The translations under genes and the position numbers were made by a program. 64,000 bases of DNA from an uncultured Dehalococcoidaceae bacterium (GTDB taxonomy: Bacteria; Chloroflexota; Dehalococcoidia; Dehalococcoidales; RBG-16-60-22): assembly GCA_964500415.1 (NCBI GenBank), contig CAZCOB010000001.1, forward strand, positions 136,267 to 200,266, read 5' to 3'. The notes beneath the pieces were generated by a model. It was given only the letters and a program-made list of their open reading frames with translations, was not told the origin of the DNA and searched no databases. This document shows positions 8,238 to 60,321 of the stretch, piece by piece; within the stretch, counting starts at the first letter, position 1; each line of letters starts with the position of its first letter.

Positions 8238-8243
8238 CGATTC

Positions 8244-8858
8244 TTATTTCAGAAAAGGATTGGCCCGTTTCTCCGTGCTGATGGTGGAGTCCGGGCCGTG
8301 GCCGGGATGGACGACAGTCTCCGGGGGCAGCGTCAGCAGCTTGGTACGGATGCTATTAATAAGCTGGTCGTAGTCACCGTCGATGAGGTCGTACCGGCCG
8401 ATGCCGTAGTTGAAGAGCGTGTCCCCGGTAAAAACATGCCCTTCCCCCACGATGCTGATGCCGCAGGGGGTGTGACCAGGCGTGTGCAGCACTTTAAAAT
8501 GAAGGTTGCCTATTTCTATTTCATCGCCTTCTTCAAGGATGCGTTCCGGCTTGGGGGCACCCTCAAAGGGCGACTCGTATACGTAGTCCGGCGACTGGGG
8601 CAGATATTTAGCGCATTCAGCGTGAGATGCTAATGGAGCTTTGGTGGCTTTTTTGACCTGCGCCGACGCCCCGACATGGTCCGGGTGTCGATGAGTTAAC
8701 ACGATAAGCTTTATCGTTAACCCCAGCTTCTCGACAGCCCGCAGGATATCTTCAGCCTGTGCACCGGGGTCGATTATCATGCCTTCCCCGGTCGCCTCCG
8801 AGCCGATAATATAACAGTTGCTGGCGTAAGGCCCGACTACCAGTTTCCTGACTATCAT
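8244..8858 (-). CDS. MBL-fold hydrolase (glyoxalase II-like)
   Basis: 204 aa. HxHxDH motif LTHRHPDHVG, later HTPGHTPG. Confidence 0.85.
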   Translation of the reverse strand: MIVRKLVVGPYASNCYIIGSEATGEGMIIDPGAQAEDILRAVEKLGLTIKLIVLTHRHPDHVGASAQVKKATKAPLASHAECAKYLPQSPDYVYESPFEGAPKPERILEEGDEIEIGNLHFKVLHTPGHTPCGISIVGEGHVFTGDTLFNYGIGRYDLIDGDYDQLINSIRTKLLTLPPETVVHPGHGPDSTISTEKRANPFLK

Positions 8859-9014
8859 TGCAACCTCCGGGTATCAAGTTTGATATTAAATAGTATACCC
8901 GAACTTCAGATAATTTTCATTCGGCTCCGCACGGTTTACCACTTGCGCTATTTTCACACTATACGTTAAACTTACAATAAGAAGTTTCTTCACGTACTTG
9001 TTAGGGAGCCGGAT

Positions 9015-10328: not shown

Positions 10329-10470
10329 TGCTGTCTTTCCTGCCGGTGCAACCTTAATATTCGTGCGGTAATACTGAAAAGCTGGCGTTAAATTTACGTT
10401 TGACGCCAGGCTGGGATTTTATAGTATAATAAATGTATAATTGGCTGTTTTAACAGCAGGAGAAGGAAGC

Positions 10471-25605: not shown

Positions 25606-26586
25606 TTATGCTATGGTTATCTGGCATCGATACAGAGGTACCTCCTGACCACCCAGGCGATATTTATACGTTTCCGCACCTTTAAGAAAGTCCCATTTCT
25701 TCTTACCCTTTTCAATACTCTCTTTAAGACAGAGAACTTTACATAGCAACCCCACGCTTAAGTAATTAAAACGCGGGTCATAAGCGCTATTATATAAGAA
25801 ATGTGTATTTTTATAATCAAAGCCTATGGTCATAGCGGCTGGCTGGTTGTCCAGCTTGATAATTCCGAACCTCAGCAGCCCGATATCTCCCATCGTTTTG
25901 GCAAAATACTTAAAAAATGACTTCATCTGCGGAGTCATAAAATTAGCTTTCTCTTCCCGGCTCCTCGGAAAGAGATTAAAGAACATATCTAAAAAATCGT
26001 CAACTTCCTGCCCGCTCTCAATACAGCGGTGTTCTACATTGCCCGCCTCTCCTAAACGCCTCAACTTGCGCTTAACTTCGTGTCGCTGCTTGGTATTTAA
26101 TGTTGCTAAATATTCGTCCCAGGAAGGCGGTAAGTCCACTTCAAGAGAGATATCCTCCTGTGTATTTAGGACTTTATAACCCCTTTCAGTCGCTATATTT
26201 ATCAGGCTCGTAAGCACGGTTGAATCGGGGCGTACGTGCTTCAGGTCCAGCGATTTTACGTTATTCTCTCTCAAATCATCCAGCAGGATGCCGAAGAAAT
26301 CGTCCTCCCTGCCGGACACCACCACGAAGTCCTGATAGTCGCAGACATCAGTATTGCCGATGAAAAAGGCTGTTTCCCCCCTGACCATCAGCGGAGCGAC
26401 GCCGATTATTTTCTCTCCCTGCCGTACCGTGCGTATGGAGAGTTCGTTACCGGAACCGAATATTTGCCACCAGACCTGCAACCATGCCGGTAAAACGAAA
26501 ACGGAAGACCAGTTGAGAGCTTGCCTTGAGTCGTTCCAGTATGAGTTTAGTTTATCCAGGTTATCATCGCTGACGATATAACTCAT
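25606..26586 (-). CDS. FemAB/CelD-like GNAT-fold protein (BioF2-like acetyltransferase family)
   Basis: 326 aa. C-terminal half (FNLF...LYNSAYDP...YLSVG...W..FDFLKGAE.YKYRLG) matches my memory of the Acetyltransf_6/CelD family. Confidence 0.6.
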   Translation of the reverse strand: MSYIVSDDNLDKLNSYWNDSRQALNWSSVFVLPAWLQVWWQIFGSGNELSIRTVRQGEKIIGVAPLMVRGETAFFIGNTDVCDYQDFVVVSGREDDFFGILLDDLRENNVKSLDLKHVRPDSTVLTSLINIATERGYKVLNTQEDISLEVDLPPSWDEYLATLNTKQRHEVKRKLRRLGEAGNVEHRCIESGQEVDDFLDMFFNLFPRSREEKANFMTPQMKSFFKYFAKTMGDIGLLRFGIIKLDNQPAAMTIGFDYKNTHFLYNSAYDPRFNYLSVGLLCKVLCLKESIEKGKKKWDFLKGAETYKYRLGGQEVPLYRCQITIA

Positions 26587-36548: not shown

Positions 36549-37742
36549 CTAGTCAACCGGCTCTTTGCCGTAGATAACCACGGTATGCTGGGCGCAGGTG
36601 CCGCTCAGGTTATGCGCCAGGCCGAAAGCGGCGTCTTTTACCTGGTGGATGGCCCTGCCCTGAAGCTGCTTGCAGATTTCCAGCGACTGCCGGGCGCCGG
36701 AGGCGCCGAAGGGGTGCCCGTAAACGAGCAGGCCGCCATCGGTATTGGTCGGAATCTCGCCGTCAATGTTGATGGCGCCGGAGGTGACGAAGTCGCCGCC
36801 CTCACCCTTCTTACAGAAACCGAGCTCTTCAAGCTCGATAATCTCGGAGATGGTGAAGCAGTCGTGCGTCTGGGCAACATCGATATCCTTGGGGGTGAGT
36901 TTGGCGTTCTTGAAAGCCACCTCGCCGGCGATTTTCAGGTGTGTCCATTCGGCGAGTGTTTCCCCCGGCCACCCGGCCGACATGCTGTGTGAAGCGTGCT
37001 GCCCCGTGCCGCGTACGTATACCATGGGTCTGTCGGTCAGTTCTTTAGCTCTCTCTTCCGAGGCGATGACAACCGCCGAAGCCCCGTCGGAAAGCGGGCA
37101 GCAGTCATACAGCCCGAAGGGTTCGGCTATAAGTCTGGCTTCCAGCGCATCCTTCATGGTTAAAGTCCTTCCTGCGAAATGTCCCTTGGTATGACCGTCG
37201 CCATAGGTATAGTTGGTGACGGAAACGGCGGCCATCTCTTCCTTGGTAGTTCCGTAGCGCTTCATGTGCATCTTGGCAATCATGGCGAAGAAAGGCGGCG
37301 GCACTCCCAGGCCCATAGCGGAGTCCCAGTCGTGGTCGTTGACCATCAATTGCGTGTAGTTGGTCTCCCATCGCTGGGGCATATAGACCTTCTCCGCGCC
37401 GGTTACCAGGACTACCTCGGCGATGCCGCTCTCCACCAGCCCCTTGGCGACGATGATAGCGGAGTTGGAGCCGGCGCACAGCGTGTCCAGGCGAATGCAG
37501 ATAGAGGTCGGTGTCAGTCCGAGCCGGTGCACTACCAGCGGGGCGGTATTCAATGCCGCTGAATGTCTCCCCGCCATGGTCGTGGCGATGATAAGGCCGT
37601 CTATATCCGCGGGTTTTAGTGCCGGAATGTCATCGGAGCAGGCTTTCATCGCCTCCTGAAGCATGTCGAAAAACGTTGCCTGCCTGACCCCGAATTTGCT
37701 CGTTCCTCCGCCGACGATTACGGCTTTCTTTTTCTCTGCCAT
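36549..37742 (-). CDS. Thiolase-fold protein, SCP-x / lipid-transfer type
   Basis: 397 aa. Active-site Cys region (LDTLCAGSNSA), C-terminal GHPFGASGARQ and NLSGTCAQH. Confidence 0.85.
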   Translation of the reverse strand: MAEKKKAVIVGGGTSKFGVRQATFFDMLQEAMKACSDDIPALKPADIDGLIIATTMAGRHSAALNTAPLVVHRLGLTPTSICIRLDTLCAGSNSAIIVAKGLVESGIAEVVLVTGAEKVYMPQRWETNYTQLMVNDHDWDSAMGLGVPPPFFAMIAKMHMKRYGTTKEEMAAVSVTNYTYGDGHTKGHFAGRTLTMKDALEARLIAEPFGLYDCCPLSDGASAVVIASEERAKELTDRPMVYVRGTGQHASHSMSAGWPGETLAEWTHLKIAGEVAFKNAKLTPKDIDVAQTHDCFTISEIIELEELGFCKKGEGGDFVTSGAINIDGEIPTNTDGGLLVYGHPFGASGARQSLEICKQLQGRAIHQVKDAAFGLAHNLSGTCAQHTVVIYGKEPVD

Positions 37743-38006
37743 ATGAACATCTCCTTTGCTTTAACTTTAACTTATATAGTCACGGAATTTATGGTTTGTT
37801 ACCGGTGAAAAAATGACAACTGCAACCACCGAAATCAACTGGCCATATTTCCCTCATATATCTTATCAGATATTATAGCCCAGCGTAAAGTAGTTCAATA
37901 TGTTATCATTTTTCCTGCCTGTGTCGAATCACACCATTAACTGTTTATTACACAAATTTCCCATCACTGAAAACTGTGAAAATATAAAGAGCCAGCCTTT
38001 CCCTAT

Positions 38007-38035
38007 TTGACACACCTATTGATGAACCATTAATA
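38007..38035 (+). promoter_or_regulatory. Putative promoter of the molybdoenzyme operon
   Basis: TTGACA (38007-12), 17-nt spacer, TTAATA (38030-35); within a 341-bp AT-rich divergent intergenic region. Confidence 0.4.
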
Positions 38036-38083
38036 TTTTATTGTCGATTGCTGTATTTTTCGTTTTTAGAAAGGAGATGACGC

Positions 38084-40321
38084 ATGGCGAAAGGTAAAGA
38101 GAATAAAGTAATTTCTACCATGTGGTCGGCCGGTTGCGGTTCGCACGGAGGCTGCGGCTGCGAGATATACGTCCAGGATGGCAAGGTGGTCAGGGTAGAG
38201 GGGGATAAAAATCACCCTTTTAACCTGGGGAGGCTTTGCCCCAAAGGCCTGGCTATACCGCAGTATATGTACCACCCCGACCGCGTTACTCATCCGTTGA
38301 AGAGGGTGGGTGAGAGGGGCGAGGGGAAGTGGGAGCGCATTACCTGGGATGAAGCCTTCGATACTATCGAGAAGAAATTCAAGGACATCCGCGTCAATTA
38401 CGGCGCGGAATCGGTCATATTCTGCCAGGGCACGGGCCGTGATATCGGCGGTCCTATCACCTTTTTGATGTACGCTTACGGAAGCCCGAACTGGGTGCAA
38501 GTGGGACTGGCCGGTCATGCCTGCTACACTCCCCGACTTGGTGCCATGTTCGCCACCCAGGGTTCTTATTGTGTCGCTGACTGTTCTCAGTTCCTGGAGA
38601 AGCGTTATGATTCACCGGAGTGGACGCCGCCCAAGTACATTCTTCTCTGGGCGCAGAATCCGGCCGCCGGCTGTCACGACGGCTTCTTCGGTCACTGGAT
38701 TATCGACTGCATGAGGCGGGGCTCCAAGCTAATTGTTATCGACCCATGCCATACCTGGTTTACCAGTCGCGCCGATGTCCACCTCCAGAATCGACCCGGC
38801 ACCGACGGCGCCATAGCCCTGGGTATGCTCAATGTTATCATCAACGAAGGCATTTACGATAAAGCGTTCGTCGAAAAGTGGTGCTACGGCTTTGACGAAC
38901 TTAAAGAGCGCGTTCAGGAATACACTCCGGAAAAGGTGGAGAAAATCACCTGGGTTCCCGCCGACCTTCTCAGGGAAGCCGCCCGGCTCTACGCCAGGAA
39001 TAAGCCGTCGGCTATCCAGTGGGGAGAGCCGGTGGACGCCATGCCGGCGGGCAGCGTGGTAGCCCAGGCCATCAACCAGCTCTGGGCCATCACCGGCAAT
39101 ATCGATAACCCAGGCGGCAACGTCATCGCCAAGAACTCGCACGGCGTTACCACCTATCCCTTCAGCTCCGCCGAGCTTACCAAACTCTATGGCGAGGACC
39201 TCGTCAAGAAGCTCAACGAGAAAAGAATCGGTGCCAACGATTACCCCATGATTAAGGGCTTCAGGGGATGGGTACAGCCCGACGTACTCATCGAGCAACT
39301 GGAAACAGATAAACCGTATAAGGTCAGGGCTGCCTGGATACAGACATCCAATATTATCGGCGGTCAGGCGGCTGACCCCCGGCGGCATTACGAGGCCATG
39401 AAAAAATTAGATTTCGTTGTCGTGGTTGACCTCTTTCAGAATCCCACCAGCATGGCTCTGGCCGATATCTTCCTCCCCGCCGCCACTATCTGCGAGAAGG
39501 AAAGCTTCCGCTCCTGGTGGCAGCCCCTCGGTGTTTCCGTCAGGGCTGTCGACGGTGTGGATGAGAGCCGGTCCGACTGGGAAATCAATCTGGAGATGGC
39601 CAAGCGGCTGGCCACCAATCCCCTTAAATACAACACGGTCAGAGAGCTTATCGACGACCGCCTGAAGGACGGAAATACCAACTTTGAGAAACTCAAGGCC
39701 AAAGGTTGCTGGGAGTACCCGCCGGAAGGACACCCCAGCCGCCCCTACTACCGCTACGAGAGAGGCCTCTTGCGCGGCGACGGCCAGCCCGGCTTCGATA
39801 CCCCCACCGGCAAGGTGGAGCTGTACTCCACCCGGTATGAGGAGTGGGGCCTCGACCCGCTGCCCTATTACGAGGAGCCGAAGGAAAGCCCCGTGGCCAC
39901 CCCCGATGTCTGTAAGAAATATCCCCTGATACTGACGACGGGTCGCCGCTCGCCGGTCTTCTTCCATGCGGAACATCGCATGATTCCCTGGCTGCGTGAG
40001 ATAGACCCCGACCCCGAGTGCGAAATCAATGATAAGACGGCTGAAGAGCTCGGCGTCAGCAACGGCGAGTGGGTCTATATCGAGAATGCGCACGGCAAGA
40101 TTAAAATGAAGGCCAAGGTCACCCCCACCGCTCATCCCATGGTCGTTACCGCGCCACACGGCTGGTGGCTGCCGGAGACCGATGGAAAAGCGCCCAACCT
40201 GTTCAGCACCTGGGAGTATAACATTAATAACCTTACCACCATGGGCAACCAGGGCAAGTCCGGCTTCGGCGGGACGGATTACCGCTCCGGTCTCTGCCGC
40301 ATTACCAAAATTAAAGATTGA
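38084..40321 (+). CDS. Mo/W bis-pyranopterin (DMSO reductase family) catalytic subunit, no Tat signal
   Basis: 745 aa. N-terminal FeS motif CGSHGGCGCEIYV...GRLCPKG; MopB core and C-terminal barrel (ELGVSNGEWVYIEN). N-terminus MAKGKENKVIS has no twin-arginine motif. Confidence 0.85.
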   Translation: MAKGKENKVISTMWSAGCGSHGGCGCEIYVQDGKVVRVEGDKNHPFNLGRLCPKGLAIPQYMYHPDRVTHPLKRVGERGEGKWERITWDEAFDTIEKKFKDIRVNYGAESVIFCQGTGRDIGGPITFLMYAYGSPNWVQVGLAGHACYTPRLGAMFATQGSYCVADCSQFLEKRYDSPEWTPPKYILLWAQNPAAGCHDGFFGHWIIDCMRRGSKLIVIDPCHTWFTSRADVHLQNRPGTDGAIALGMLNVIINEGIYDKAFVEKWCYGFDELKERVQEYTPEKVEKITWVPADLLREAARLYARNKPSAIQWGEPVDAMPAGSVVAQAINQLWAITGNIDNPGGNVIAKNSHGVTTYPFSSAELTKLYGEDLVKKLNEKRIGANDYPMIKGFRGWVQPDVLIEQLETDKPYKVRAAWIQTSNIIGGQAADPRRHYEAMKKLDFVVVVDLFQNPTSMALADIFLPAATICEKESFRSWWQPLGVSVRAVDGVDESRSDWEINLEMAKRLATNPLKYNTVRELIDDRLKDGNTNFEKLKAKGCWEYPPEGHPSRPYYRYERGLLRGDGQPGFDTPTGKVELYSTRYEEWGLDPLPYYEEPKESPVATPDVCKKYPLILTTGRRSPVFFHAEHRMIPWLREIDPDPECEINDKTAEELGVSNGEWVYIENAHGKIKMKAKVTPTAHPMVVTAPHGWWLPETDGKAPNLFSTWEYNINNLTTMGNQGKSGFGGTDYRSGLCRITKIKD

Positions 40322-52287: not shown

Positions 52288-52557
52288 TTATATCACTTTC
52301 ATCTTAATCGCAGAATATAATATCTAACGCGACAAAACCCCACTTTTTCAAATAATTGTTTTCCCAGAACAATTCACCCTGTAAAAAGTCAACCCTTCCA
52401 TGTCGCCGTTTCCCCCTTAATTGTTTGCCCCCTCCGGCACTCCGATAACCCCACTTACCATAACCCGAAAAACAACTCAAACGTATTCTCCCCTTCCCAC
52501 GATGGAATTGTTTCCCCTCAAAAAGTTCAGGGTTGTTCTTTTCCTTAACATAAGCTA

Positions 52558-52586
52558 TTGTCGCCCCCTCTTGTATATGCTATACT
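52558..52586 (+). promoter_or_regulatory. Putative rpsB promoter
   Basis: TTGTCG (52558-63), 17-nt spacer, TATACT (52581-86). Confidence 0.4.
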
Positions 52587-52644
52587 GTTTAAAGACCTGA
52601 ATCCTGAATACTTATGATTAATATACCAAGGGAGGTCAACTAAC

Positions 52645-53427
52645 TTGCCAGATACAGCAACCATTAAACAGCTCCTCGAAGCCGGTGCGCACTTCGGACA
52701 TCAGACGGGTCGCTGGAACCCGCGGATGAAAAATTACATCTTCACCAAGCGTAACGGCATCCACATCATCGACCTTGAAAAAACCGCCGTCATGCTGGAT
52801 AAAGCCTGCGAGTTCATCAAGAATGTAATCGCCGGCGGTGAGTCCATCCTCCTAGTCGGTACCAAGAAACAAGCGCAGGAATCCGTGCAGGAAGAGGCGG
52901 AACGCTGCGGCGTGTATTACGTCAATCAGCGCTGGCTGGGAGGCATGCTCACCAACTTCGCCACGATTCAGGCGCGTATCGACCAGCTCGTACGCCTTGA
53001 AGACCAGATGGCCCGGGGTGAACTGGGGCGGCTTACCAAGAAAGAGGTTCTCAACATCAGCGAAAAAATCGAGCGTCTCAACAAGCAAATGGGCGGCTTT
53101 AAAGAGATGACAGTCTTACCGGGTGCCATCTTCATTATCGATCCCACTAAGGAAAGGATTGCTCTCGCTGAGACTAAACGCATGGGCATACCGGTGGTCG
53201 CCATTGTGGATACCAACTGCAACCCTGACGAAATAGACTATCCCATTCCTGCTAACGATGACGCTATCCGTGCCATCAAGCTTATCTGTACTAAAATCGC
53301 GGATGCTGTCCTCGAAGGCAAGATAAGTGTATCAACCGCTGTAACATCTGATGTAATCGAGGAGAAAGAAGGAGAACCAGCCATAGAGTCTACCGAACCG
53401 TTGATATTCACACCTGATGAGGAATAA
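52645..53427 (+). CDS. rpsB: 30S ribosomal protein S2
   Basis: 260 aa, TTG start after [23 protein letters not shown]. Confidence 0.95.
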
Positions 53428-53437
53428 GGAGGACTAT

Positions 53438-54677
<1,240 letters not shown>

Positions 54678-54678
54678 T

Positions 54679-55236
54679 ATGGTTAACGATACTTTAAAGA
54701 GCACGGAAGATAAAATGAAAGCCTCGATAAAGGTATTCCACGCGGACCTGGCTACCATCCGAACAGGGCATGCTATGCCCGCCCTTATCGAGCATATTAA
54801 AGTGGAATATGCTGGCGTTCCCACTCCGCTAAATCAGATCGCAGGTATTTCGGCGCCTGAGGCGGGATTGCTGGTTATCCAGCCATGGGATAAAAGCAGT
54901 GTCAGTAGCATTGAGAAAGCAATATTAAAATCGGAACTCGGCTTAAATCCATCCAACGATGGTAATGTTATCAGGATAGCTATCCCACCGCTCAGCGAAG
55001 AGCGACGTCAGGAACTGATTAAGGTGGTGCACCGGAGGATTGAAGAAAGACGGGTAGCAATACGCAGCCTGCGACACGACACTATGAATGATTTAAAAAA
55101 GATGGAAAAGGACAAGGAAATATCGCAGGACGAGCATAAGCGTGCCCAGGACCAGTTGCAGAAAATCACCGATGTTTTCATGGCTGAAATAGAGATGCTC
55201 GGTAAGGATAAGGAACAGGAACTACAGGAAGTCTAG
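54679..55236 (+). CDS. frr: Ribosome recycling factor
   Basis: ATG 54679, just after the pyrH stop. IRTGHAMPALIEHIKVEYAG, PPLSEERR. Confidence 0.95.
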   Translation: MVNDTLKSTEDKMKASIKVFHADLATIRTGHAMPALIEHIKVEYAGVPTPLNQIAGISAPEAGLLVIQPWDKSSVSSIEKAILKSELGLNPSNDGNVIRIAIPPLSEERRQELIKVVHRRIEERRVAIRSLRHDTMNDLKKMEKDKEISQDEHKRAQDQLQKITDVFMAEIEMLGKDKEQELQEV

Positions 55237-55298
55237 TAAGGATAATTTGTGACTGTTCAGAAAAAGTACTTGACCTGTTATTGGTTTCCTCAACGAAT

Positions 55299-55997
55299 AT
55301 GGAGAGTATTACCAGTCTTCCCCGTCATGTAGCCCTTATAATGGATGGCAACGGCAGGTGGGCCGAGAAACGCGGAATACCGCGCCTTGAGGGACATCGG
55401 GCTGGAGTAAAGAACGTCCGCCCTGTTATCAAATCTCTTAACAATCATAACATTGAGTACGTTACCCTTTACGCTTTTTCTACCGAAAACTGGAGTCGCC
55501 CCGAAGAGGAGGTTGACGGCCTTTTCCACCTGCTGGAAAACATCATCGATAAAGAGGCGCGTGAGCTCCATAAGAACAACATAAGAATCCGTCACATAGG
55601 TAGTCTTGATGGGTTGTCTCAGGAGCTTCAGAAATCTATAAAAAGAGCCATTAACCTGACTGCTAAAAACGACGGTATGACACTCGGCGTAGCGTTGAAC
55701 TACGGAGGGCGCGAGGAAATACTGAATGCGATACGAATTATTGTTGAAAACAAGGTGCCCCCTCAAAATATAGATGAAATGCTTTTCAGTAGGCACCTCT
55801 ATGCTGCGGACTTTCCCGACGTCGACCTGGTAATTCGCACGGGCGGTGAAATCCGTACCAGCAACTTCCTTATCTGGCAGACAGCCTACAGCGAATATTA
55901 CTTCACCCCGGTCTTCTGGCCGGACTTTAATGAAGAGAAACTGGAGAAGGCCCTGGCAACCTATGGCCGAAGGCAAAGGCGCTTCGGCGGGTTATAA
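55299..55997 (+). CDS. uppS: Isoprenyl (undecaprenyl) diphosphate synthase
   Basis: HVALIMDGNGRWA, FSTENWSRP. The start could also be TTG 55281. Confidence 0.9.
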   Translation: MESITSLPRHVALIMDGNGRWAEKRGIPRLEGHRAGVKNVRPVIKSLNNHNIEYVTLYAFSTENWSRPEEEVDGLFHLLENIIDKEARELHKNNIRIRHIGSLDGLSQELQKSIKRAINLTAKNDGMTLGVALNYGGREEILNAIRIIVENKVPPQNIDEMLFSRHLYAADFPDVDLVIRTGGEIRTSNFLIWQTAYSEYYFTPVFWPDFNEEKLEKALATYGRRQRRFGGL

Positions 55998-56008
55998 TCG
56001 AAGGCGAT

Positions 56009-56809
56009 ATGCTCGGGAAAAGAGTACTAACAGCACTTTGGGGCATTCCTCTCCTTGTTGTTGCCATCTGGTTCGATGAGCCCTTGCCGTGGTTCAGCAT
56101 ACTTGCCGCCGTCTGGGGACTGCTGGCTTTCCTGGAATTCAACAGAATGGCGGGCGCGGCTAAAATCGTGCCGCTTACCGTCTTCGGCGCGGTCTGGACG
56201 GTGCTGTTTGTCCTGTATCCCCACTGCACTTATGATTATGTCGTCCCTTCTTTGCTGACTTCGGCGCTGGTAATTTCGTTGATAATGCTTGTTTTTCTCC
56301 GGCACAGGGAGGGCGCTTTCACCGGCTGGTCATGGATGATGGCAGGCATTCTTTACGTGGGCTGGCTGCTCAGCTACCTGGTGGCCCTGAGACTTGACGC
56401 CGGGCGGGAATGGCTGTACCTGGCGATTTTCGCCACCTTCGGTTCGGATACCGCCGCTTACTTTATTGGCAGGGCATGGGGCAGGCACAAGCTGACGCCG
56501 CGCATCAGTCCTGGCAAGACCTGGGAGGGGGCCGTCGCCGGGATATTCGGGGGGGTGATTATCAGCCTGCTTTTCACGCTGGACACGCCCCTCCAGCTTC
56601 CCCTGAACTACTGGCAGGCGATAATGCTGGGGGTACTCATCAGCGTCTTCGGGCAGATTGGCGACCTGGTGGAATCATTGCTGAAACGGAGCTCCGGCGT
56701 GAAGGAATCCGGGAGCTCGATGCCGGGTCACGGCGGGCTGCTGGACCGGATGGATAGCGTCGTGTTTGCGGGCGTGGTGGTTTACCTGTACTATATCGCG
56801 GTGGGCTAG
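56009..56809 (+). CDS. cdsA: Phosphatidate cytidylyltransferase
   Basis: 266 aa polytopic. SxxKRxxxxKDxGxxxPGHGGxxDRxD-type tail (LLKRSSGVKESGSSMPGHGGLLDRMDS). Confidence 0.85.
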   Translation: MLGKRVLTALWGIPLLVVAIWFDEPLPWFSILAAVWGLLAFLEFNRMAGAAKIVPLTVFGAVWTVLFVLYPHCTYDYVVPSLLTSALVISLIMLVFLRHREGAFTGWSWMMAGILYVGWLLSYLVALRLDAGREWLYLAIFATFGSDTAAYFIGRAWGRHKLTPRISPGKTWEGAVAGIFGGVIISLLFTLDTPLQLPLNYWQAIMLGVLISVFGQIGDLVESLLKRSSGVKESGSSMPGHGGLLDRMDSVVFAGVVVYLYYIAVG

Positions 56810-56820
56810 GCGGTCTAATA

Positions 56821-56937
56821 TTTAACCTCACCCCCTTGGTCCCCCTGTCAGGGGGAAGCTCTAAACTCTAAGCAATAATTATTTTTAACCTCACCCCCTT
56901 TGTCCCCCCTCTCCTGGCGAGGTTATCAGGAGAGGGG
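56821..56937. repeat. Tandem direct repeat, each copy with a C/G-rich hairpin
   Basis: TTTAACCTCACCCCCTTGGTCCCCCT (56821-46) and TTTAACCTCACCCCCTTTGTCCCCCCT (56884-910). Hairpins CCCCCTGTCAGGGGG and CCCCTCTCCTG (56906-16) / CAGGAGAGGGG (56927-37); the second is followed by a T-run. Confidence 0.6.
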
Positions 56938-57057
56938 GAAATGTTTTTAGGATACAATCGTTCTATAATACATGCCTATAACCTTATAGTATGCATCCTG
57001 CTTGATATATAGTAGATAATATGTTAATATTAGTATTATAATCTTTACATATAGGTC

Positions 57058-57086
57058 TTTACACATTGTTCTTAATGTTATATAAT
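57058..57086 (+). promoter_or_regulatory. Putative promoter of the AT-rich islet ATPase
   Basis: TTTACA (57058-63), 17-nt spacer, TATAAT (57081-86); RBS GAGGTGA 4 nt before ATG 57104. Confidence 0.45.
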
Positions 57087-57103
57087 GAGCTATGAGGTGA
57101 AAA

Positions 57104-58327
57104 ATGTCATACACAAATAATTTAATGGCCCTTGATAGATTAAGTAAATGGTTCACTCCAAATAGACCTATTGATTTGCCTGAGTATTTATCTGGGCGCG
57201 TAAAACTAATTTACAATATCCAAGATGCGGTACACACTCAAGGCTTACATATTATTTTATATGGAGAAAGAGGAATAGGTAAGACATCTTTAGCGAGAGT
57301 TACAGCATATAGGGTACAAGAACCTGAAAGGAAAGATGGAATTCGAGCAATTCTTGTATCATGTGATTCTAATGATGATTACTCCTCAATTTGGCGTAAA
57401 GTATTTCAAGAAATAATGTTAGCTCAACACCAACTGGGATTTGCACAACACAATGCTGAGACTATCATTGGTAGACTGGATATCAAAGAACCCATCGCAA
57501 ACCCCAATGATGTGCGAATATTGTTAAAATCTTTTACTTTTCAGGCAGTAATTATTATTGATGAATTTGATAGAATACCACACCAAGGCAATGTAAGACG
57601 ACTAATGGCTGATACAATCAAATTATTCTCAGATACTAATGTAAATGCGACCATCATTATCGTGGGTGTTGCTGAATCAATAGGTGAATTGATTTCAGAA
57701 CATCAATCGATTGCCAGGAACATTTCTCAAATTCTTGTAGAACCAATGAGTAATGAGGAATTGGCAGAAATTATTCGTAAAGGCTATTCAAATTGTAACC
57801 TCTCATGGGAATCCGGAATTGATTATAAAATAGCTGCTTTATCTCAAGGATATCCTCATTATGCACACCTATTAGGATTATGGGCTGGTAGAAAAGCAAT
57901 CGAATCAAACCAAAAAGAAGTAGTGCAAATAGACCTAGACAAAGCAATAAGAGAAGCGTTAAGCAATACTGCTGGTGGAATAATACAAGAATATGAAATG
58001 GCTGTAGATTCTTCTCAACCTGATAATCTTTTTAAAGATGTATTGCTTGCTTGTGCTCTAGCTGAAAGAGACTCTCGTGGTAGGTTTGGTATCAAATTCC
58101 TGAAAGAACCATTGCGTAAAATTCTTAATAAACCCAATATCCGGACAGTTGCTTATCAAAGTCATCTGGCAAAATTTTGTAGTAGCCAGCGAGGTCCTGT
58201 TTTAAAAAGAACAGGCAGCCGTCGGAACTATAGATGGCAGTTTATTAATCCGCAACTTATTCCCTATATCAAGTTAGAAGCAATTGAGAGAGGAAAGCTT
58301 AATTCTGATGGTATGATAAATGAATAA
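57104..58327 (+). CDS. P-loop ATPase, archaeal-type (ATPase_2/ORC-Cdc6-like) with probable C-terminal wHTH
   Basis: 407 aa, AT-rich codons. Walker A YGERGIGKTSLA, Walker B VIIIDEFD. The tail RRNYRWQFINPQLIPYI resembles the DUF234-type end of archaeal ATPases. Confidence 0.75.
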   Translation: MSYTNNLMALDRLSKWFTPNRPIDLPEYLSGRVKLIYNIQDAVHTQGLHIILYGERGIGKTSLARVTAYRVQEPERKDGIRAILVSCDSNDDYSSIWRKVFQEIMLAQHQLGFAQHNAETIIGRLDIKEPIANPNDVRILLKSFTFQAVIIIDEFDRIPHQGNVRRLMADTIKLFSDTNVNATIIIVGVAESIGELISEHQSIARNISQILVEPMSNEELAEIIRKGYSNCNLSWESGIDYKIAALSQGYPHYAHLLGLWAGRKAIESNQKEVVQIDLDKAIREALSNTAGGIIQEYEMAVDSSQPDNLFKDVLLACALAERDSRGRFGIKFLKEPLRKILNKPNIRTVAYQSHLAKFCSSQRGPVLKRTGSRRNYRWQFINPQLIPYIKLEAIERGKLNSDGMINE

Positions 58328-58358
58328 ATATTTTACATACTATTTTATGGACTTATAG

Positions 58359-58523
58359 ATGTTTAGCTTCAAGGCCATTGCGAAAACTGTACCTGCTATT
58401 TGTATTCTACTTGGGTTCGTTGCAATTTTTCTTTTTAAATCCAATCTAGGATGGATTTTTGTAATAGTAGGGTTTATTTTACAGGTTTTGTTTTTATATT
58501 CAGGTAGAAGTAATAGATATTAA
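58359..58523 (+). CDS. Uncalled 54-aa two-TM peptide
   Basis: Below the ORF-track cutoff. ATG 58359 gives MFSFKAIAKTVPAICILLGFVAIFLFKSNLGWIFVIVGFILQVLFLYSGRSNRY, TAA at 58521-23. Two hydrophobic helices, weak RBS. Confidence 0.4.
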   Translation: MFSFKAIAKTVPAICILLGFVAIFLFKSNLGWIFVIVGFILQVLFLYSGRSNRY

Positions 58524-58539
58524 CTAAAGTTGTCTTCTC

Positions 58540-58568
58540 TTGACAAACTCCCCCGCGCATGATAAATT
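58540..58568 (+). promoter_or_regulatory. Putative trp operon promoter
   Basis: TTGACA (58540-45), 17-nt spacer, TAAATT (58563-68). Confidence 0.45.
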
Positions 58569-58596
58569 TAAGTATCAACCAAATTATGTAAAGGCT

Positions 58597-58882
58597 GTGA
58601 ACGGGAGTAGTAAGCTCCGGAGCGGGGCACAGAGAGTCGGGTAAGGTGTGAGCCGACGCCAGCGCGGGGGCCGAATGGACCCGGGAGCCGCAGGTTGAAA
58701 GTCCTTCGACTAGCTCAGGACGAGTAGGCCTTGCCGCAGGGGAAGCGTTAAAGAATCCCGGGGTATCGTCCCGACTTCATCGGGTCCGTACCCGCAAAGT
58801 GGCCCCGATTGCATCGGGGCAAGAAGGGTGGCACTGCGGAAATATAGCCTCCCGTCCCTTCAGAGGGCGGGGGGTTTTTTAT
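58597..58882 (+). promoter_or_regulatory. T-box leader (tRNA-Trp-sensing riboswitch) of the trp operon
   Basis: GGGAGTAGTA base motif, AGAGAG box (58631-36), GGTGTGA distal loop (58645-51), specifier GAA-UGG-A (UGG 58676-78). T-box core GGGTGGCACTGCGG (58826-39), then terminator. Confidence 0.8.
58848..58882 (+). terminator. T-box-controlled intrinsic terminator
   Basis: CCTCCCGTCCCT / AGGGCGGGGGG stem, TCAG loop, TTTTTTATT run ending 8 nt before the trpE ATG. Confidence 0.7.
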
Positions 58883-58890: not shown

Positions 58891-60321
58891 ATGATGTATT
58901 ACCCGACGCTGGAAGAAGTGAAGAAACTGAAAAGGCAGGGCAACCTGGTGCCCGTCTATAGAGAAATCAAGGCCGACCTGGACACGCCGGTATCCGCGTA
59001 CCTCAAAATTGCGCGGGGGGACCATTCGTTCCTGCTGGAGAGCGTGGAGGGGGGCGAAAGGCTGGCGCGGTACAGCTTCCTGGGGACGGAGCCGGCCACT
59101 ATCATCAGCACCGGCGGCGATAGAGCGGTCGACCCCCTGAAGCTGATAGAGGACGCATTTAAGAAATACCGTCCGGTGCCGATAGAGGGACTGCCGAGGT
59201 TTCACGGTGGGGCGGTGGGGTACTTAAGCTACGAGGTGGCGCGGTACTTCGAGAGGCTGCCCTCGCCGGACAGCGACCCCGTAAGCCTGCCGGAGTCCGT
59301 GATGATGCTGGCGGACACGCTGCTCATCTTCGACCACCTCACCCACACGATTAAAGTTGTCTCGCACGTGCACCTCGACGGCGACGTGGAGTCGGAATAC
59401 AACAAAGCCGTCAGAAAGATAGACGAACTCGCCGCGAGGCTGAAAAATACGGTTACGACAGATAAAAACAACCCGACGGCAAACGTAAAACCGACCGTGG
59501 AATCGAACCTGACGCAGGCGGAATACGAAAGCATGGTGGAGCGCGCCAAGAAACACATCTACGAAGGGGATATCATCCAGGTGGTGCCATCGCAGCGGCT
59601 GTCGCGGCGCACGGAAGCCAGCCCCTTCGCCATCTACCGGGCGCTACGCTCGCTGAACCCCTCGCCGTACATGTACTACCTGCACCTCGGCGACTTCCAT
59701 ATCGTCGGCACCTCGCCGGAACTGCTGGTGCGCGTCGAGGACGGAATCGTCTCCAACCATCCCATCGCCGGCACCCGACCCAGGGGAAAGGATACCAGAG
59801 CAGACAAGGCCCTCGAAGAAGAACTCAAAAACGACGAAAAAGAATGCGCCGAGCACCTCATGCTGGTGGACCTCGCCCGCAACGACGTCGGCAGAATCAG
59901 CCAGCCGGGCACGGTAGAGGTCACCCAGTTCATGGACATCGAGCGCTACTCGCACGTCATGCACCTGGTATCGCACGTGCAGGGAAAGCTCAGAAACGGG
60001 TTTTCACAGTTCGACGCCATGCGGGCCTGCTTCCCGGCGGGCACGGTCTCCGGGGCACCCAAGATACGCGCCATGGAGATAATCGCCGAACTGGAGCCGG
60101 ACAAGCGAGGCCCTTACGCGGGCTCGGTGGGTTATTTCGACTTCAGCGGCAACATGGACACGGCCATCGCCATCCGCACCATCGTTATCAAGGACGAGGT
60201 GGCCTACGTCCAGGCGGGGGGAGGGGTAGTCGCCGACAGCGTGCCGGAGAAAGAGTACCAGGAAAGCCTCAACAAGGCGCAGGCACTGCTGACCGCCATT
60301 GAGCGGGCGGAGGCGGGATAA
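58891..60321 (+). CDS. trpE: Anthranilate synthase component I
   Basis: ATG 58891 after GGAGA. LLESVEGGE, GAPKIRAMEII, GYFDFSGNMDTAIAIRT. The track start 58828 lies inside the T-box terminator and is rejected. Confidence 0.9.
   Translation: MMYYPTLEEVKKLKRQGNLVPVYREIKADLDTPVSAYLKIARGDHSFLLESVEGGERLARYSFLGTEPATIISTGGDRAVDPLKLIEDAFKKYRPVPIEGLPRFHGGAVGYLSYEVARYFERLPSPDSDPVSLPESVMMLADTLLIFDHLTHTIKVVSHVHLDGDVESEYNKAVRKIDELAARLKNTVTTDKNNPTANVKPTVESNLTQAEYESMVERAKKHIYEGDIIQVVPSQRLSRRTEASPFAIYRALRSLNPSPYMYYLHLGDFHIVGTSPELLVRVEDGIVSNHPIAGTRPRGKDTRADKALEEELKNDEKECAEHLMLVDLARNDVGRISQPGTVEVTQFMDIERYSHVMHLVSHVQGKLRNGFSQFDAMRACFPAGTVSGAPKIRAMEIIAELEPDKRGPYAGSVGYFDFSGNMDTAIAIRTIVIKDEVAYVQAGGGVVADSVPEKEYQESLNKAQALLTAIERAEAG

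What the first reader, a model, noticed from the sequence alone, without database searches (positions are those of the whole stretch)
56941..58535. AT-rich islet with a stand-alone archaeal-type ATPase and a tiny membrane ORF, inserted at the end of the rpsB-cdsA string
There is an abrupt compositional break. 60-nt lines I hand-counted inside are about 30-38% G+C, against about 55-68% in cdsA and trpE on either side. The islet begins where the widely conserved rpsB-tsf-pyrH-frr-uppS-cdsA string ends; in many bacteria dxr and rseP follow there. It is bounded on the left by tandem hairpin repeats and on the right by the trp promoter and T-box. It carries its own near-consensus promoter (TTTACA-17-TATAAT), a 407-aa P-loop NTPase (GERGIGKT, IIIDEFD, putative wHTH tail) and an unannotated 54-aa two-TM ORF. 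No integrase, tRNA or att-like direct repeat is visible. An NTPase sensor paired with a minimal membrane protein resembles abortive-infection or defence modules, but I cannot match it to any named system. This is my top candidate for an undescribed system.
Basis: partly seen in the sequence, partly recalled or inferred. Interest (0 to 1): 0.75.

Follow-up and report, generated by a model that had tools for sequence, protein, structure and literature searches.

The report
Foreign ORC-like ATPase gene islet
A 1.6-kb AT-rich insert between cdsA and the trp operon carries one mobile gene for an Orc1/Cdc6-like DNA-binding ATPase whose relatives ride on an IS1-like transposon and sit in prophage defence hot spots, so it is a plausible but untested single-gene anti-phage factor, and it is not paired with the small membrane ORF beside it.

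Summary
Window 56941-58535 has 33.9% G+C against 53.8 ± 3.2% elsewhere (z = -6.2). The ATPase has the lowest GC3 of 52 genes (0.24 against 0.49-0.80). Both edges fall to within a few bases where homology with relatives stops.

The 407-aa protein is an AAA+/lid/winged-helix ATPase. Its closest folds are PAB2304 and Orc1/Cdc6, and it matches phrog_6841 (unknown function) over its full length. The family is large and its members are almost all about 400 aa.

- The gene is AT-richer than its surroundings in about 100 of 104 loci.
- In 7 loci it lies with an IS1-like transposase inside elements bounded by 20-bp inverted repeats, 6 of them with 6-bp target duplications.
- Distant members sit in the P2 gpA-gpQ defence hot spot, between lambdoid Q and holin, and in the variable region of a cluster N mycobacteriophage.
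- Copies without a transposase are under strong purifying selection.

The site upstream of the trp promoter holds different cargo in relatives. The 54-aa ORF looks real because it has a homologue in a relative, but it is not a partner of the ATPase.

Verdict: a mobile single-gene cassette, probably anti-phage or anti-mobile-element, with no experimental test. The proposed two-gene ATPase-plus-membrane system is not supported.

The parts
56009..56809 (+). cdsA, the host flank on the left side of the junction
   Evidence: ORF. Homologues are named phosphatidate cytidylyltransferase and carry Pfam CTP_transf_1. GC is 0.585 and GC3 0.737.
56818..56860 (+). REP-like repeat, copy 1 (28-nt repeat 56818-56845, small hairpin CCCCC-TGTCA-GGGGG at 56841-55). 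Host-type element, not part of the insert.
   Evidence: 2 copies, 0 expected by chance. A similar element lies left of the small ORF in L128 and occurs in other Chloroflexota loci.
56881..56940 (+). REP-like repeat, copy 2, with a 13-bp-stem hairpin at 56905-56938 and a T run. Terminator-like; the likely end of the cdsA transcript. It marks the left edge of the islet.
   Evidence: Conserved after cdsA in L120 (84.6%) and beside the trp hot spot in L125 (92%).
56941..57103 (+). AT-rich 5' region of the cassette. The promoter has -35 TTTACA at 57058-57063 and -10 TATAAT at 57081-57086. The ribosome-binding site GAGGTG is at 57094-57099.
   Evidence: 11 of 12 positions match consensus. Core promoter positions and the GAGGT ribosome-binding site are invariant across the window, L006, L027, L030 and L002 (alignment A2). 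Nucleotide homology with other cassettes starts at about 57049-57053.
57104..58327 (+). Orc1/Cdc6-like AAA+ ATPase with a winged-helix C-terminus, 407 aa, family phrog_6841. Walker A is G54-T61 and Walker B is D153-E154. Box VII/Arg-finger-like H200-S202-R205, GxP-type motif S247-QGYP-H252 and sensor-2-like R263 are assigned by eye. The winged helix covers about residues 310-395.
   Evidence: GC3 is 0.236. Purifying selection: pN 0.10-0.24 against saturated pS.
58359..58523 (+). 54-aa two-TM ORF. Probably a real small membrane-protein gene of the variable site, not a conserved partner of the ATPase.
   Evidence: A 51-aa homologue in L128 shares 67% aa identity with the frame kept, at the same place upstream of trp and with no ATPase in the 320 nt of contig upstream. 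It is not called as a gene by any source, has no Shine-Dalgarno sequence (read), and is not found beside other homologues.
58536..58587 (+). Right edge of the islet and the trp promoter (-35 TTGACA 58540-58545, TG-extended -10 TAAATT 58563-58568)
   Evidence: Homology with relatives L124 and L126-L130 begins at 58536-58539.
58588..58862 (+). T-box leader of the trp operon (host flank)
   Evidence: Rfam RF00230, 99.1 bits, E = 2.9e-21. Terminator-like hairpin at 58846-58876.
58891..60321 (+). trpE (host flank)
   Evidence: ORF. 517 relatives were found with this protein. GC is 0.60.

Best explanation
The islet is horizontally acquired DNA sitting in a variable cargo site just upstream of the trp promoter of a Dehalococcoidales-like genome. 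Its one large gene is a self-contained cassette: a near-consensus constitutive promoter, a ribosome-binding site and a 407-aa ATPase. The ATPase belongs to a widespread family of about 400-aa AAA+/lid/winged-helix ATPases (phrog_6841, Orc1/Cdc6- and PAB2304-like).

Shown:
- The family spreads as the constant cargo of an IS1-like DDE transposon with 20-bp terminal inverted repeats and 6-bp target duplications.
- It also occurs as a solitary AT-rich accessory gene in prophages.
- The window copy has no transposase, no inverted repeats and no small basic-protein gene, and the ATPase open reading frame is intact; such transposase-less copies as a class are under purifying selection.

Inferred:
- The protein binds DNA through its winged helix and assembles on it in an ATP-dependent way, as Orc1/Cdc6 and related switch ATPases do.
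- It protects its carrier against incoming phage or other mobile DNA, for example by occupying or blocking replication or packaging of the invader. It would act alone, without a separate effector.
- The neighbouring 54-aa membrane ORF is a separate resident of the variable site. It is probably co-transcribed because no terminator lies between the two genes, but it is not part of the mechanism.

My confidence in the identity and mobility part is about 0.9. My confidence in the anti-phage or anti-mobile-element function is about 0.45.
For: Foreign origin:
- Composition outlier with z = -6.2 and GC3 0.236.
- Absent after cdsA in all six cdsA relatives fetched, L118-L123 (three of these contigs extend only about 170-400 nt past cdsA), and upstream of trp in relatives.
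- The site holds other cargo in relatives: NYN in L124, N6_N4 methylase fused to Mrr in L126, and unknown genes in L125, L131 and L161.

Fold and family:
- Weak generic P-loop hits only in Pfam and NCBIfam.
- Full-length match to phrog_6841, E = 2e-44.
- AF2 model pLDDT 87. Top Foldseek hits are 2qen (PAB2304) and Orc1/Cdc6 (1fnn, 2qby, 1w5s, 2v1u) over about 400 columns.
- 1190 50%-identity clusters at E ≤ 1e-30, and nearly all of the best 150 listed are 390-440 aa.

Mobility:
- The gene has lower G+C than its whole locus in all 24 cellular locus records and lower than its flanks in 76 of 80 viral loci.
- An IS1-like transposase lies divergently upstream (Pfam DDE_Tnp_IS1 27.8 bits, above the cutoff).
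- The 20-bp inverted repeat TTCAAAnTGAyMCACTACCG plus 6-bp target duplications bound the unit in L005, L008, L013, L014, L032 and L062. L015 has the repeats only.
- Relics of the repeat or of the small basic gene lie next to transposase-less copies in L024, L025, L002 and L006.
- In L128 a transposase relic and a repeat copy abut the trp promoter, at the same site as the window islet.

Function independent of the transposase:
- The transposase-less copies in the window, L027, L030 and L002 show pN 0.10-0.24 against saturated pS (about 0.75). dN/dS is 0.04-0.07 where it can be computed.
- The promoter is conserved.

Defence-type locations of distant full-length homologues (25-40% identity):
- Between gpA and gpQ of a P2-like prophage in E. 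coli. This is the hot spot described in PMC9122126, section 10.
- Between the Q antiterminator and the holin in 15 lambdoid loci.
- In the central variable region of cluster N mycobacteriophage Kevin1, as gp30.
- Near the integrase of Gordonia phage Cashline.

Other:
- Distant co-linear similarity to the PADLOC candidate PDC-S59 for several members, E = 1e-7 to 1e-10.
- One fusion to a NACHT plus FGE-sulfatase protein.
Against: - No member has been tested. The papers and supplements I searched mention none.
- The protein has no recognisable effector domain, so the protective step is conjecture.
- Location in prophage cargo sites is guilt by association. Such sites also hold non-defence accessory genes.
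- The persistent linkage to a DDE transposase, and the resemblance of the AAA+ core to TnsC and TniB, fit a role in transposition equally well for the transposon-borne copies.
- Many cellular copies lie between ordinary housekeeping genes rather than in defence islands.
- The PDC-S59 matches are weak and partial.
- No empty-site allele of the window's own species was available.
Confidence: 0.5

Rival explanations
1. The ATPase is a transposition accessory protein of the IS1-like transposon, choosing targets or regulating the transposase as IstB, TnsC, TniB or MuB do. It would assemble on DNA with ATP and steer or activate the DDE transposase. On this view the window copy is a stranded relic left after the transposase was lost.
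For: - Seven elements bounded by inverted repeats, six of them with target duplications, plus one further transposase-adjacent copy, keep the transposase and ATPase in the same divergent arrangement while other passengers vary. This holds across ATPases that are only 30-77% identical to the window protein.
- Foldseek finds TnsC at TM 0.61 for 7ufi, and also 7mbw.
- There are weak hits to Pfam TniB and to the PHROG 'DNA transposition protein' family.
Against: - Most copies lack the transposase: about 18 of 26 cellular loci and 35 of 37 viral groups. They are nevertheless intact, carry their own conserved promoter and are under strong purifying selection.
- They occupy prophage cargo sites with no transposase or inverted repeat nearby.
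- The TniB score is below Pfam's cutoff (19.6 against 22.4).
- The divergent orientation is unusual for a transposition operon.
- From my own knowledge, IS1-family transposases are not known to need an ATPase.
- The full-length fold, including the winged helix, fits PAB2304 and Orc1/Cdc6 better.
Confidence: 0.2
2. This is the first reader's model: a two-gene abortive-infection-type module in which the NTPase senses infection and the 54-aa two-TM peptide is the membrane effector.
For: - The two ORFs are 31 nt apart on the same strand with no terminator between them.
- The small ORF appears to be a real gene.
- The closest ATPase homologue (L027-L029, 76% identity) is followed by a 105-aa four-TM protein.
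Against: - The small ORF is not found next to any other homologue.
- Membrane-protein neighbours are not enriched (p = 0.83).
- The L027 membrane protein is on the opposite strand and is unrelated in sequence.
- The only homologue of the small ORF (L128) has no ATPase in the 320 nt of contig upstream of it.
- The recurrent downstream neighbour in the family (7 intact copies plus relics) is a soluble basic 72-95-aa protein on the opposite strand.
Confidence: 0.05
3. The protein is a replication initiator, a maintenance factor or a transcription regulator. It could be an Orc1/Cdc6-type initiator of a small integrated replicon or a MalT-like switch regulator. It would have no role in conflict with phages.
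For: - Orc1/Cdc6 proteins are the closest solved structures after PAB2304.
- The architecture is an ATPase with a winged helix and no effector domain.
- The promoter looks constitutive.
Against: - The TIGR02928 Orc1/Cdc6 score is 28.9 bits against a cutoff of 181.
- No origin-like repeat array lies beside the gene.
- It is a single gene flanked by host genes, with no other replicon functions.
- In prophages it lies in cargo sites rather than in the replication module.
- There is no conserved target operon next to it.
Confidence: 0.1
4. It is an ordinary resident housekeeping gene of this lineage whose composition merely happens to be unusual.
For: It is intact and selectively maintained.
Against: - It has the most extreme GC3 of 52 genes.
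- It is absent from this junction in every relative examined.
- Homologues lie at different loci in every genome.
- It matches no curated housekeeping family.
Confidence: 0.02

Closest known systems
phrog_6841 (PHROGs family of unknown function). Members include E. coli P2-like prophage protein WP_019842449 ('nSTAND1 domain-containing NTPase').
   Same: Full-length match, residues 11-390 against profile positions 18-413 of 470, E = 2e-44. Same size and same motifs. The E. coli member scores 7e-181.
   Different: The family has no assigned function. The window protein is only 25-28% identical to the enterobacterial members and lies in a bacterial chromosome outside any prophage.
PAB2304 of Pyrococcus abyssi (PDB 2qen) and the Pfam ATPase_2 (PF01637) 'archaeal ATPase' family
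   Same: Best Foldseek hit: E = 3e-11, TM 0.53/0.61 over 393 columns. Same ATPase, helical and winged-helix layout.
   Different: The Pfam score is just under the gathering cutoff (32.3 against 33.2). No DUF234 hit was reported in the Pfam scan. Identity is 16%. The function of ATPase_2 proteins is itself unknown.
Orc1/Cdc6 replication initiators (archaeal 1fnn, 2qby, 1w5s, 2v1u; eukaryotic ORC/Cdc6)
   Same: AAA+ domain, lid and C-terminal winged helix. Foldseek E about 1e-10 over about 410-420 columns. Walker A and B are present, and Arg-finger-like and sensor-2-like residues are conserved.
   Different: TIGR02928 scores 28.9 bits against a cutoff of 181. Identity is 13-15% and rmsd about 10-12 Å. 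No origin repeats or replisome genes are nearby. The gene sits in cargo sites of transposons and prophages.
PADLOC candidate system PDC-S59, a single-gene 'phage defence candidate' (that description is from my memory of PADLOC-DB)
   Same: Co-linear partial matches for the window protein and four viral members, E = 1e-7 to 1e-10. The profile length (428) is similar to the protein length.
   Different: Scores are only about 30-38 bits and cover about a third to a half of the protein. PDC-S59 is itself unvalidated, and no paper in the library mentions it.
AAA+ transposition ATPases TnsC, TniB, IstB and MuB
   Same: An AAA+ core of similar fold (TnsC 7ufi, TM 0.61). Family members are encoded next to a DDE transposase inside repeat-bounded elements.
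   Different: The TniB score is below cutoff. This protein has an additional C-terminal winged helix. Its orientation is divergent. Most copies have no transposase and are still under selection. The partner transposase is of IS1 type.
STAND/NLR-like defence ATPases (Avs/AVAST, bNACHT, Pfam nSTAND1)
   Same: Passes the Pfam nSTAND1 cutoff (37.7 against 27.1) and equals the NACHT cutoff (26.7). It has a GxP-type motif and a winged helix after the NTPase. One family member is fused to NACHT plus FGE-sulfatase.
   Different: It has no sensor repeats and no effector domain. It covers only positions 16-240 of the 379-position nSTAND1 profile. It has an Arg-finger-like Box VII, which is more typical of classical AAA+ proteins.

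Membership tests
phrog_6841 | Significant full-length match to the family profile | tested here: met
   E = 2.2e-44, 153 bits, residues 11-390 against profile positions 18-413 of 470.
Orc1/Cdc6 (NCBIfam TIGR02928) | Score at or above the curated cutoff (181.3 bits) | tested here: not met
   28.9 bits, covering residues 38-195 only.
Orc1/Cdc6 | Three-domain fold: AAA+ base, lid and C-terminal winged helix | tested here: met
   AF2 model with pLDDT 87 and secondary structure H-H-H-β-β at residues 310-395. Foldseek aligns about 410-420 columns to 1fnn, 2qby and 1w5s.
Orc1/Cdc6 | Adjacent origin with repeated recognition boxes, and a role in replication | tested here: not met
   No repeat array in 56700-58700 beyond the two host hairpin repeats. 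A replication role cannot be tested here.
Pfam ATPase_2 (PF01637) / DUF234 archaeal ATPases | ATPase_2 at or above the gathering score, with a C-terminal DUF234 | tested here: not met
   32.3 bits against a cutoff of 33.2. No DUF234 hit at E ≤ 1. The fold is nevertheless closest to PAB2304.
Pfam nSTAND1 (PF20703) / STAND NTPases | Domain score at or above the gathering cutoff | tested here: met
   37.7 bits against 27.1, but only profile positions 16-240 of 379 are covered.
STAND/NLR-type defence proteins (Avs, bNACHT) | Fused sensor repeats (TPR, WD40 or LRR) and an effector domain | tested here: not met
   No further Pfam domain. The best 150 family hits listed are nearly all 390-440 aa. There is one exceptional fusion, P0380.
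PADLOC PDC-S59 | Strong full-length match to the PADLOC model | tested here: inconclusive
   7.7e-8, 29.8 bits, residues 150-297 against positions 155-298 of 428. Other members reach 1e-10.
Transposition ATPases (TniB, TnsC, IstB) | Match to the family model above cutoff | tested here: not met
   TniB scores 19.6 bits against a cutoff of 22.4.
Transposition ATPases (TniB, TnsC, IstB) | Encoded with a transposase inside the element | tested here: not met
   For the window: no transposase, inverted repeat or target duplication. This is met in the related loci L005, L008, L013, L014, L015, L032, L046 and L062.
Transposition ATPases (TniB, TnsC, IstB) | Required for transposition | not testable with these tools
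   Needs a transposition assay with and without the ATPase.
IS1-family transposon (applies to the related elements, not to the window islet) | IS1-type DDE transposase, terminal inverted repeats with GGnnnTG ends (ISfinder consensus, from memory), and target-site duplication | tested here: met
   DDE_Tnp_IS1 scores 27.8 against a cutoff of 24.1. NCBIfam IS1 gives 7e-19, below its cutoff. The 20-bp repeats end in GGTAGTG, and 6 of 7 elements have 6-bp duplications. The window islet itself has none of these.
Two-gene NTPase plus membrane-effector abortive-infection module | Conserved linkage of the NTPase to the membrane partner across genomes | tested here: not met
   No homologue of the 54-aa ORF lies beside any other family member. 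TM neighbours are 7 of 55 against a background of 105 of 896.
Anti-phage defence system (generic) | Enrichment in defence islands or prophage defence hot spots | tested here: inconclusive
   Present in the P2 gpA-gpQ hot spot, between lambdoid Q and holin and in the cluster N variable region. The trp site holds an R-M gene and an NYN gene in relatives. No genome-wide enrichment statistic was computed.
Anti-phage defence system (generic) | Protection against phage when expressed | not testable with these tools
   Needs experiments. None were found in the literature searched.

The most novel reading that the evidence does not exclude
The roughly 400-aa Orc1/Cdc6-like ATPase family (phrog_6841) is a previously unrecognised single-protein immunity factor with no effector domain. 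It would act by ATP-dependent assembly on invading DNA. Its original vehicle would be a hitherto undescribed IS1-derived transposon that keeps the ATPase and a small basic protein as fixed cargo, from which prophages and chromosomal hot spots such as this trp site repeatedly captured it.
Probability: 0.35. Interest if true: 0.75.

Novelty: new variant of a known kind. Interest (0 to 1): 0.55.

Why it matters
If the family protects against phages, it adds a minimal defence system: one AAA+/winged-helix protein with no nuclease, NADase or membrane effector. That would raise the question of how an ORC-like switch alone stops an invader.

The fixed association with an IS1-like transposon is unusual for that family. 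It offers a simple natural case of an insertion sequence that disseminates one specific cargo gene, or alternatively of an IS1 relative that uses an ATPase partner.

The family has at least about 1,200 clusters at 50% identity. It reaches E. coli P2-like and lambdoid-type prophages and mycobacteriophages, so the idea can be tested directly in model hosts.

For annotation, the result shows that the cdsA/trp junction in this lineage is a rearrangement point and a cargo hot spot.

Tried and rejected
- Terminal repeats in the window. Searches for repeats or target duplications around the islet found nothing beyond the two host hairpin repeats. A first naive inverted-repeat search on the related elements also failed. 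The repeat was found only after aligning element ends.
- Empty-site allele. cdsA relatives (best 82% aa identity) have a different gene order after cdsA. trpE relatives gave the right edge and the hot-spot picture but no exact empty site. L128 is the nearest approximation.
- Partnership of the small ORF. There are no Pfam, PADLOC or PHROG hits, and one weak NCBIfam hit (PRK13682, E = 0.0034). The ORF is not in the 15-billion-protein collection. It has no similarity to the 105-aa membrane protein of L027. I rejected it as a partner.
- Named defence systems. PADLOC and NCBIfam gave only weak partial hits (PDC-S59, mad8, IetA, DS8, DS41).
- Sequence search of PDB. It returned only P-loop-level matches to VCP, RuvB and Clp.
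- Literature. Nothing on PDC-S59. nSTAND1 is mentioned only in general STAND papers. Vassallo et al. has no relevant ATPase. The 'AAA_22' loci in the P4 tables of Rousset et al. are a different, longer NLR-like protein. A rare single-gene 'AAA_22' locus in their P2 table could not be checked.
- N-terminal extensions in longer family members have no Pfam domain.
- The ISMhu11 literature search found nothing.
Full report

Yes. In 300-nt windows G+C falls from 0.55-0.61 in cdsA to 0.30-0.39 between about 56950 and 58600, then returns to 0.60 in the trp leader and trpE. The stated interval 56941-58535 has 33.9% G+C. All other 1595-nt windows of the 64 kb average 53.8 ± 3.2%, with a minimum of 43.8%, giving z = -6.2. 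The ATPase ORF has GC3 of 0.236, against 0.49-0.80 for the other 51 long ORFs.

The ORFs are as described: 57104-58327 (+), 407 aa, and 58359-58523 (+), 54 aa. No tRNA is present in the window. The only Rfam match in 50-64 kb is a T-box at 58588-58862, 99 bits.

**2. The edges**

Left edge.
- Two copies of a 28-nt repeat lie at 56818-56845 and 56881-56908, 0 expected by chance.
- The second copy ends in a 13-bp-stem hairpin at 56905-56938 followed by a T run, which looks like a terminator.
- These are host features, not ends of the insert. The hairpin follows cdsA in relative L120 and lies beside the trp site in L125 at 92% identity.
- Similar REP-like elements occur in other Chloroflexota loci.

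Right edge.
- In six relatives with 74-84% nucleotide identity across the trp block (TrpE 79-88% aa identity), homology to the window begins at 58536-58539.
- This is just before the trp promoter, TTGACA-17-TAAATT at 58540-58568.

**3. The locus in relatives**

The closest CdsA homologues (up to 82% identity) are named Dehalococcoidales or Chloroflexota. None has the ATPase after cdsA. L120-L122 continue with rsmG and pdxS. L118 continues with unrelated sequence.

Upstream of trp the relatives differ from one another. In L124, L125, L131 and L148 the rpsB-uppS block lies there in the opposite orientation. L161 has cdsA, a 774-nt gap and then trp, as the window does.

Between the conserved flank and the trp promoter every relative has a different AT-rich segment (G+C 0.26-0.47):

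| Locus | Cargo upstream of the trp promoter |
|---|---|
| L124 | NYN-domain gene |
| L126 | N6_N4 methylase fused to Mrr_cat |
| L125 | two unknown genes |
| L131, L148 | a lipoprotein-like gene and a HIT gene |
| L161 | a 187-aa ORF |
| L128 | a 51-aa membrane ORF plus transposon debris |

The site is a cargo hot spot and a rearrangement point. The ATPase is one of several alternative occupants.

**4. The ATPase**

Curated libraries give only generic P-loop hits:
- AAA_22 at 1e-9, nSTAND1 at 2.5e-9 and AAA_16.
- ATPase_2 just under its cutoff, and NACHT exactly at its cutoff.
- TIGR02928 Orc1/Cdc6 at 28.9 bits against a cutoff of 181.

PADLOC gives only weak partial hits, with the candidate PDC-S59 at 7.7e-8 as the best. 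The one good family match is phrog_6841, of unknown function, at E = 2e-44 over the full length.

The AF2 model built from 26 homologues has pLDDT 87 and pTM 0.83. Foldseek against PDB puts PAB2304 (2qen) first, then archaeal and eukaryotic Orc1/Cdc6 over about 400 columns, then RuvB, clamp-loader subunits, TnsC, Apaf-1 and CED-4.

The alignment shows these invariant features:
- the N-terminal FTPxxPI and GR motif;
- Walker A (GxRGxGK[TS]) and Walker B (DE);
- H200-x-S202-xx-R205, which I read as Box VII/Arg-finger-like;
- SQGYP, which I read as GxP-type, and R263, which I read as sensor-2-like;
- a C-terminal H-H-H-β-β winged helix with the motif Y376-x-W378-x-F380-x-x-P383.

**5. The family**

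There were 1469 word-indexed hits, the best 120 at 54-77% identity and nearly all about 400 aa. An exhaustive profile search finds 1190 50%-identity clusters at E ≤ 1e-30 and 2847 at E ≤ 1e-10. The best 150 listed are almost all 390-440 aa. The few longer ones have extensions without domains. One is fused to a NACHT/nSTAND3 NTPase and an FGE-sulfatase domain.

Cellular homologues at 51-77% identity come from Chloroflexota and Actinomycetota. They lie at a different locus in each genome:
- next to uvrA, ATP synthase genes, thiG and others;
- or beside ORFs that look like integrases, other IS transposases and methylases, as judged by eye from their sequences.

The gene has lower G+C than its locus in all 24 cellular locus records.

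IMG/VR holds 102 full-length relatives at 25-40% identity. In 76 of the 80 fetched loci the gene is again AT-richer than its flanks.

**6. The transposon**

Clustering of neighbours showed a 280-aa protein divergently upstream of the ATPase in L005, L008, L013, L014, L015 and L032. It is an IS1-type DDE transposase: Pfam DDE_Tnp_IS1 scores 27.8 against a cutoff of 24.1, and NCBIfam IS1 gives 7e-19. The viral contigs L046/L047 and L062 have it too, at 54-58% identity.

A small basic protein of 72-95 aa lies convergently downstream. Its motif is GRLGGxKGGxARAxKLTPEQRxEIAxKAAxARW. It is intact in seven loci and present as relics in L002-L004 and L006.

Aligning the element ends revealed a 20-bp terminal inverted repeat, TTCAAAnTGAyMCACTACCG, whose ends read GGTAGTG. 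Together with 6-bp target duplications it bounds elements of 2.7-4.2 kb:

| Locus | Element coordinates | Target duplication |
|---|---|---|
| L005 | 278-3529 | AACAAA |
| L008 | 6997-10399 | AAGTTT |
| L013 | 7002-9727 | TGGACC |
| L014 | 6087-10282 | CCGACG |
| L032 | 302-3825 | CTTGAG |
| L062 | 4260-7701 | AGTAGG |
| L015 | 6918-10699 | none found |

Within these elements the transposase and ATPase are constant and the other passengers vary: NYN, DUF5678, a pair that looks like a toxin-antitoxin, and a membrane protein. The small basic gene is present in the six elements from cellular genomes; no copy was detected in L062.

Relics of the right-hand repeat follow transposase-less ATPases in L024 and L025. 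Transposase and ATPase have diverged to similar degrees, 54-75% and 52-64% identity, so the linkage is old.

Most telling for this window is relative L128. It carries the C-terminal third of this transposase (E = 3e-9) and a copy of the repeat with 1 mismatch, whose outer end lies about 10 nt before the point where homology to the window's trp promoter region begins. That is the same point where the window islet ends. The window islet itself has no transposase, no repeat and no small basic gene. Its AT-rich 5' region (163 nt) is about as long as the transposase-ATPase spacer in the intact elements, which is about 105-200 nt.

**7. Copies without a transposase are functional**

The ATPases of the window, L027, L030 and L002 all lack a transposase. 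Between them pN is 0.10-0.24 while pS is saturated at about 0.75. Where it can be computed, dN/dS is 0.04-0.07. The core positions of their promoter and the GAGGT(G/A) ribosome-binding site are invariant across five loci. The gene is therefore kept for a function that does not need the transposase.

**8. Where distant members sit in phages**

- In E. coli TK3888 the homologue, named 'nSTAND1 domain-containing NTPase' by PGAP, lies between the replication endonuclease gpA and the portal gpQ of a P2-like prophage. Rousset et al. describe exactly this interval as a defence hot spot (PMC9122126, section 10). Only 4 of 5426 complete E. coli genomes carry this allele.
- Fifteen lambdoid loci have the gene between the Q antiterminator (phrog_753) and the holin.
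- A 13-locus low-G+C group has it after the endolysin. One locus has it between the portal and the large terminase subunit.
- Mycobacteriophage Kevin1 gp30 ('AAA-ATPase') lies in the central variable region between the lysis genes and the integrase. The authors flag that region for prophage-mediated defence (PMC6544188).
- Gordonia phage Cashline gp34 lies between the tail genes and the integrase.

No paper or supplement I searched reports a test of any member.

**9. The 54-aa ORF**

- It has no Shine-Dalgarno sequence, is T-rich, and is not called by any source.
- L128 nevertheless has a 51-aa ORF at the equivalent place, with 67% aa identity, conservative changes and a preserved frame. It is therefore probably a real two-TM gene.
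- In L128 there is no ATPase in the 320 nt of contig upstream of it. No homologue of it is found in any other locus fetched. Membrane neighbours are not enriched around the family (7 of 55 against 105 of 896, p = 0.83).
- The closest ATPase homologue (L027-L029) is followed by an unrelated 105-aa four-TM gene on the other strand. I treat that as coincidence.

The two-gene reading is not supported.

**10. How it most likely works**

Shown: the islet is a foreign, self-promoted, single-gene cassette from a transposon- and prophage-borne family. The ATPase open reading frame is intact, and transposase-less copies of the family are under purifying selection.

Inferred: the product is an ATP-driven DNA-binding switch of the Orc1/Cdc6 type. 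Its recurrent placement in defence and accessory-gene sites, its AT-rich 'always foreign' composition, and the defence-type alternatives at the same trp site make an anti-phage or anti-mobile-element role the best single guess, at about 0.45.

The main rival, at about 0.2, is a transposition accessory or regulatory ATPase. That fits the fixed linkage to the transposase but not the many selected transposase-less copies. How a protein without an effector domain would protect the cell is unknown.

**11. Novelty and score**

The fold class is known, and a distant candidate (PDC-S59) already exists in PADLOC. What appears undescribed, as far as these tools show, is two things. One is the family's status as the fixed cargo of an IS1-like transposon. 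The other is its recurrence as a solitary gene in several classical prophage hot spots.

I rate it a new variant of a known kind, with interest 0.55. It is a good experimental candidate, but the specific two-gene system that was proposed is not there.

Noticed in passing
window 58536 (just upstream of the trp promoter); L124:3372-4639, L125:3072-4663, L126:1-1243, L128:1-1059, L131:3049-4677, L148:2590-4680, L161:3596-4369: The site immediately upstream of the trp promoter is a hypervariable AT-rich cargo hot spot in Dehalococcoidales relatives. It holds an NYN gene (L124), an N6_N4 methylase fused to Mrr (L126), unknown genes (L125, L161), a lipoprotein-like gene plus HIT (L131, L148), or transposon debris (L128).
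   Followed up: partly
window 52544-56812 compared with L124:1-3371, L125:5-3006, L131:9-3048, L148:2-2589; L118:6826-6903: The rpsB-tsf-pyrH-frr-uppS(-cdsA) block is inverted relative to the trp operon in several relatives. L118 carries, after cdsA, an inverted copy of the region upstream of rpsB (window 52448-52524). The junction is therefore a rearrangement breakpoint.
   Followed up: partly
L005:278-3529, L008:6997-10399, L013:7002-9727, L014:6087-10282, L015:6918-10699, L032:302-3825, L062:4260-7701: A family of 2.7-4.2-kb IS1-like transposons with 20-bp terminal inverted repeats (TTCAAAnTGAyMCACTACCG, ends GGTAGTG) and 6-bp target duplications. Each carries the transposase and the ATPase; a small basic-protein gene was seen in the six elements from cellular genomes, and the other passenger genes vary.
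   Followed up: yes
L005:3245-3463(-), L008:9212-9478(-), L014:9176-9400(-), L015:9158-9445(-), L032:3510-3767(-): A small basic protein with the C-terminal motif GRLGGxKGGxARAxKLTPEQRxEIAxKAAxARW lies convergent to the ATPase in the transposons. It has a weak hit to phrog_2384 (1.5e-7) and no Pfam family. Its function is unknown.
   Followed up: partly
window 56822-56845 and 56885-56908; L006:274; L027:858, 2980(-), 9881, 9921; L118 ~7085-7135: A REP-like hairpin element (AACCTCACCCCCT..CCCCCTCTCC..GGAGAGGGGG) is shared by several Chloroflexota genomes. In L027/L028 an inverted pair of it brackets the ATPase plus a 105-aa four-TM gene.
   Followed up: partly
L039:1273-1935, L040 (+1172 from ATPase start), L041 (+1192): In three independent viral loci a gene follows directly after the ATPase on the same strand. 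From its N-terminal Cys I judge it to be SRAP/YedK-like. In L039 it matches phrog_1599.
   Followed up: no
protein P0380 (1493 aa): One family member is fused N-terminally to a second NACHT/nSTAND3 NTPase and a C-terminal FGE-sulfatase domain. That architecture is typical of STAND conflict systems.
   Followed up: no
L001 = window 56911-58610; L026 ends at window 56934: Logan contigs from run SRR9705735 break at both edges of the islet. The cause could be the hairpin repeat, or strain heterogeneity (presence/absence) in that sample.
   Followed up: no
L028:4253-8001: A 3.7-kb stretch without any called gene lies directly upstream of the closest ATPase homologue (P0005).
   Followed up: no
window 11419-12708, 25606-26586, 37600-38100: These are other, much milder low-G+C spots in the window (G+C 0.40-0.46, GC3 about 0.50-0.53).
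   Followed up: no
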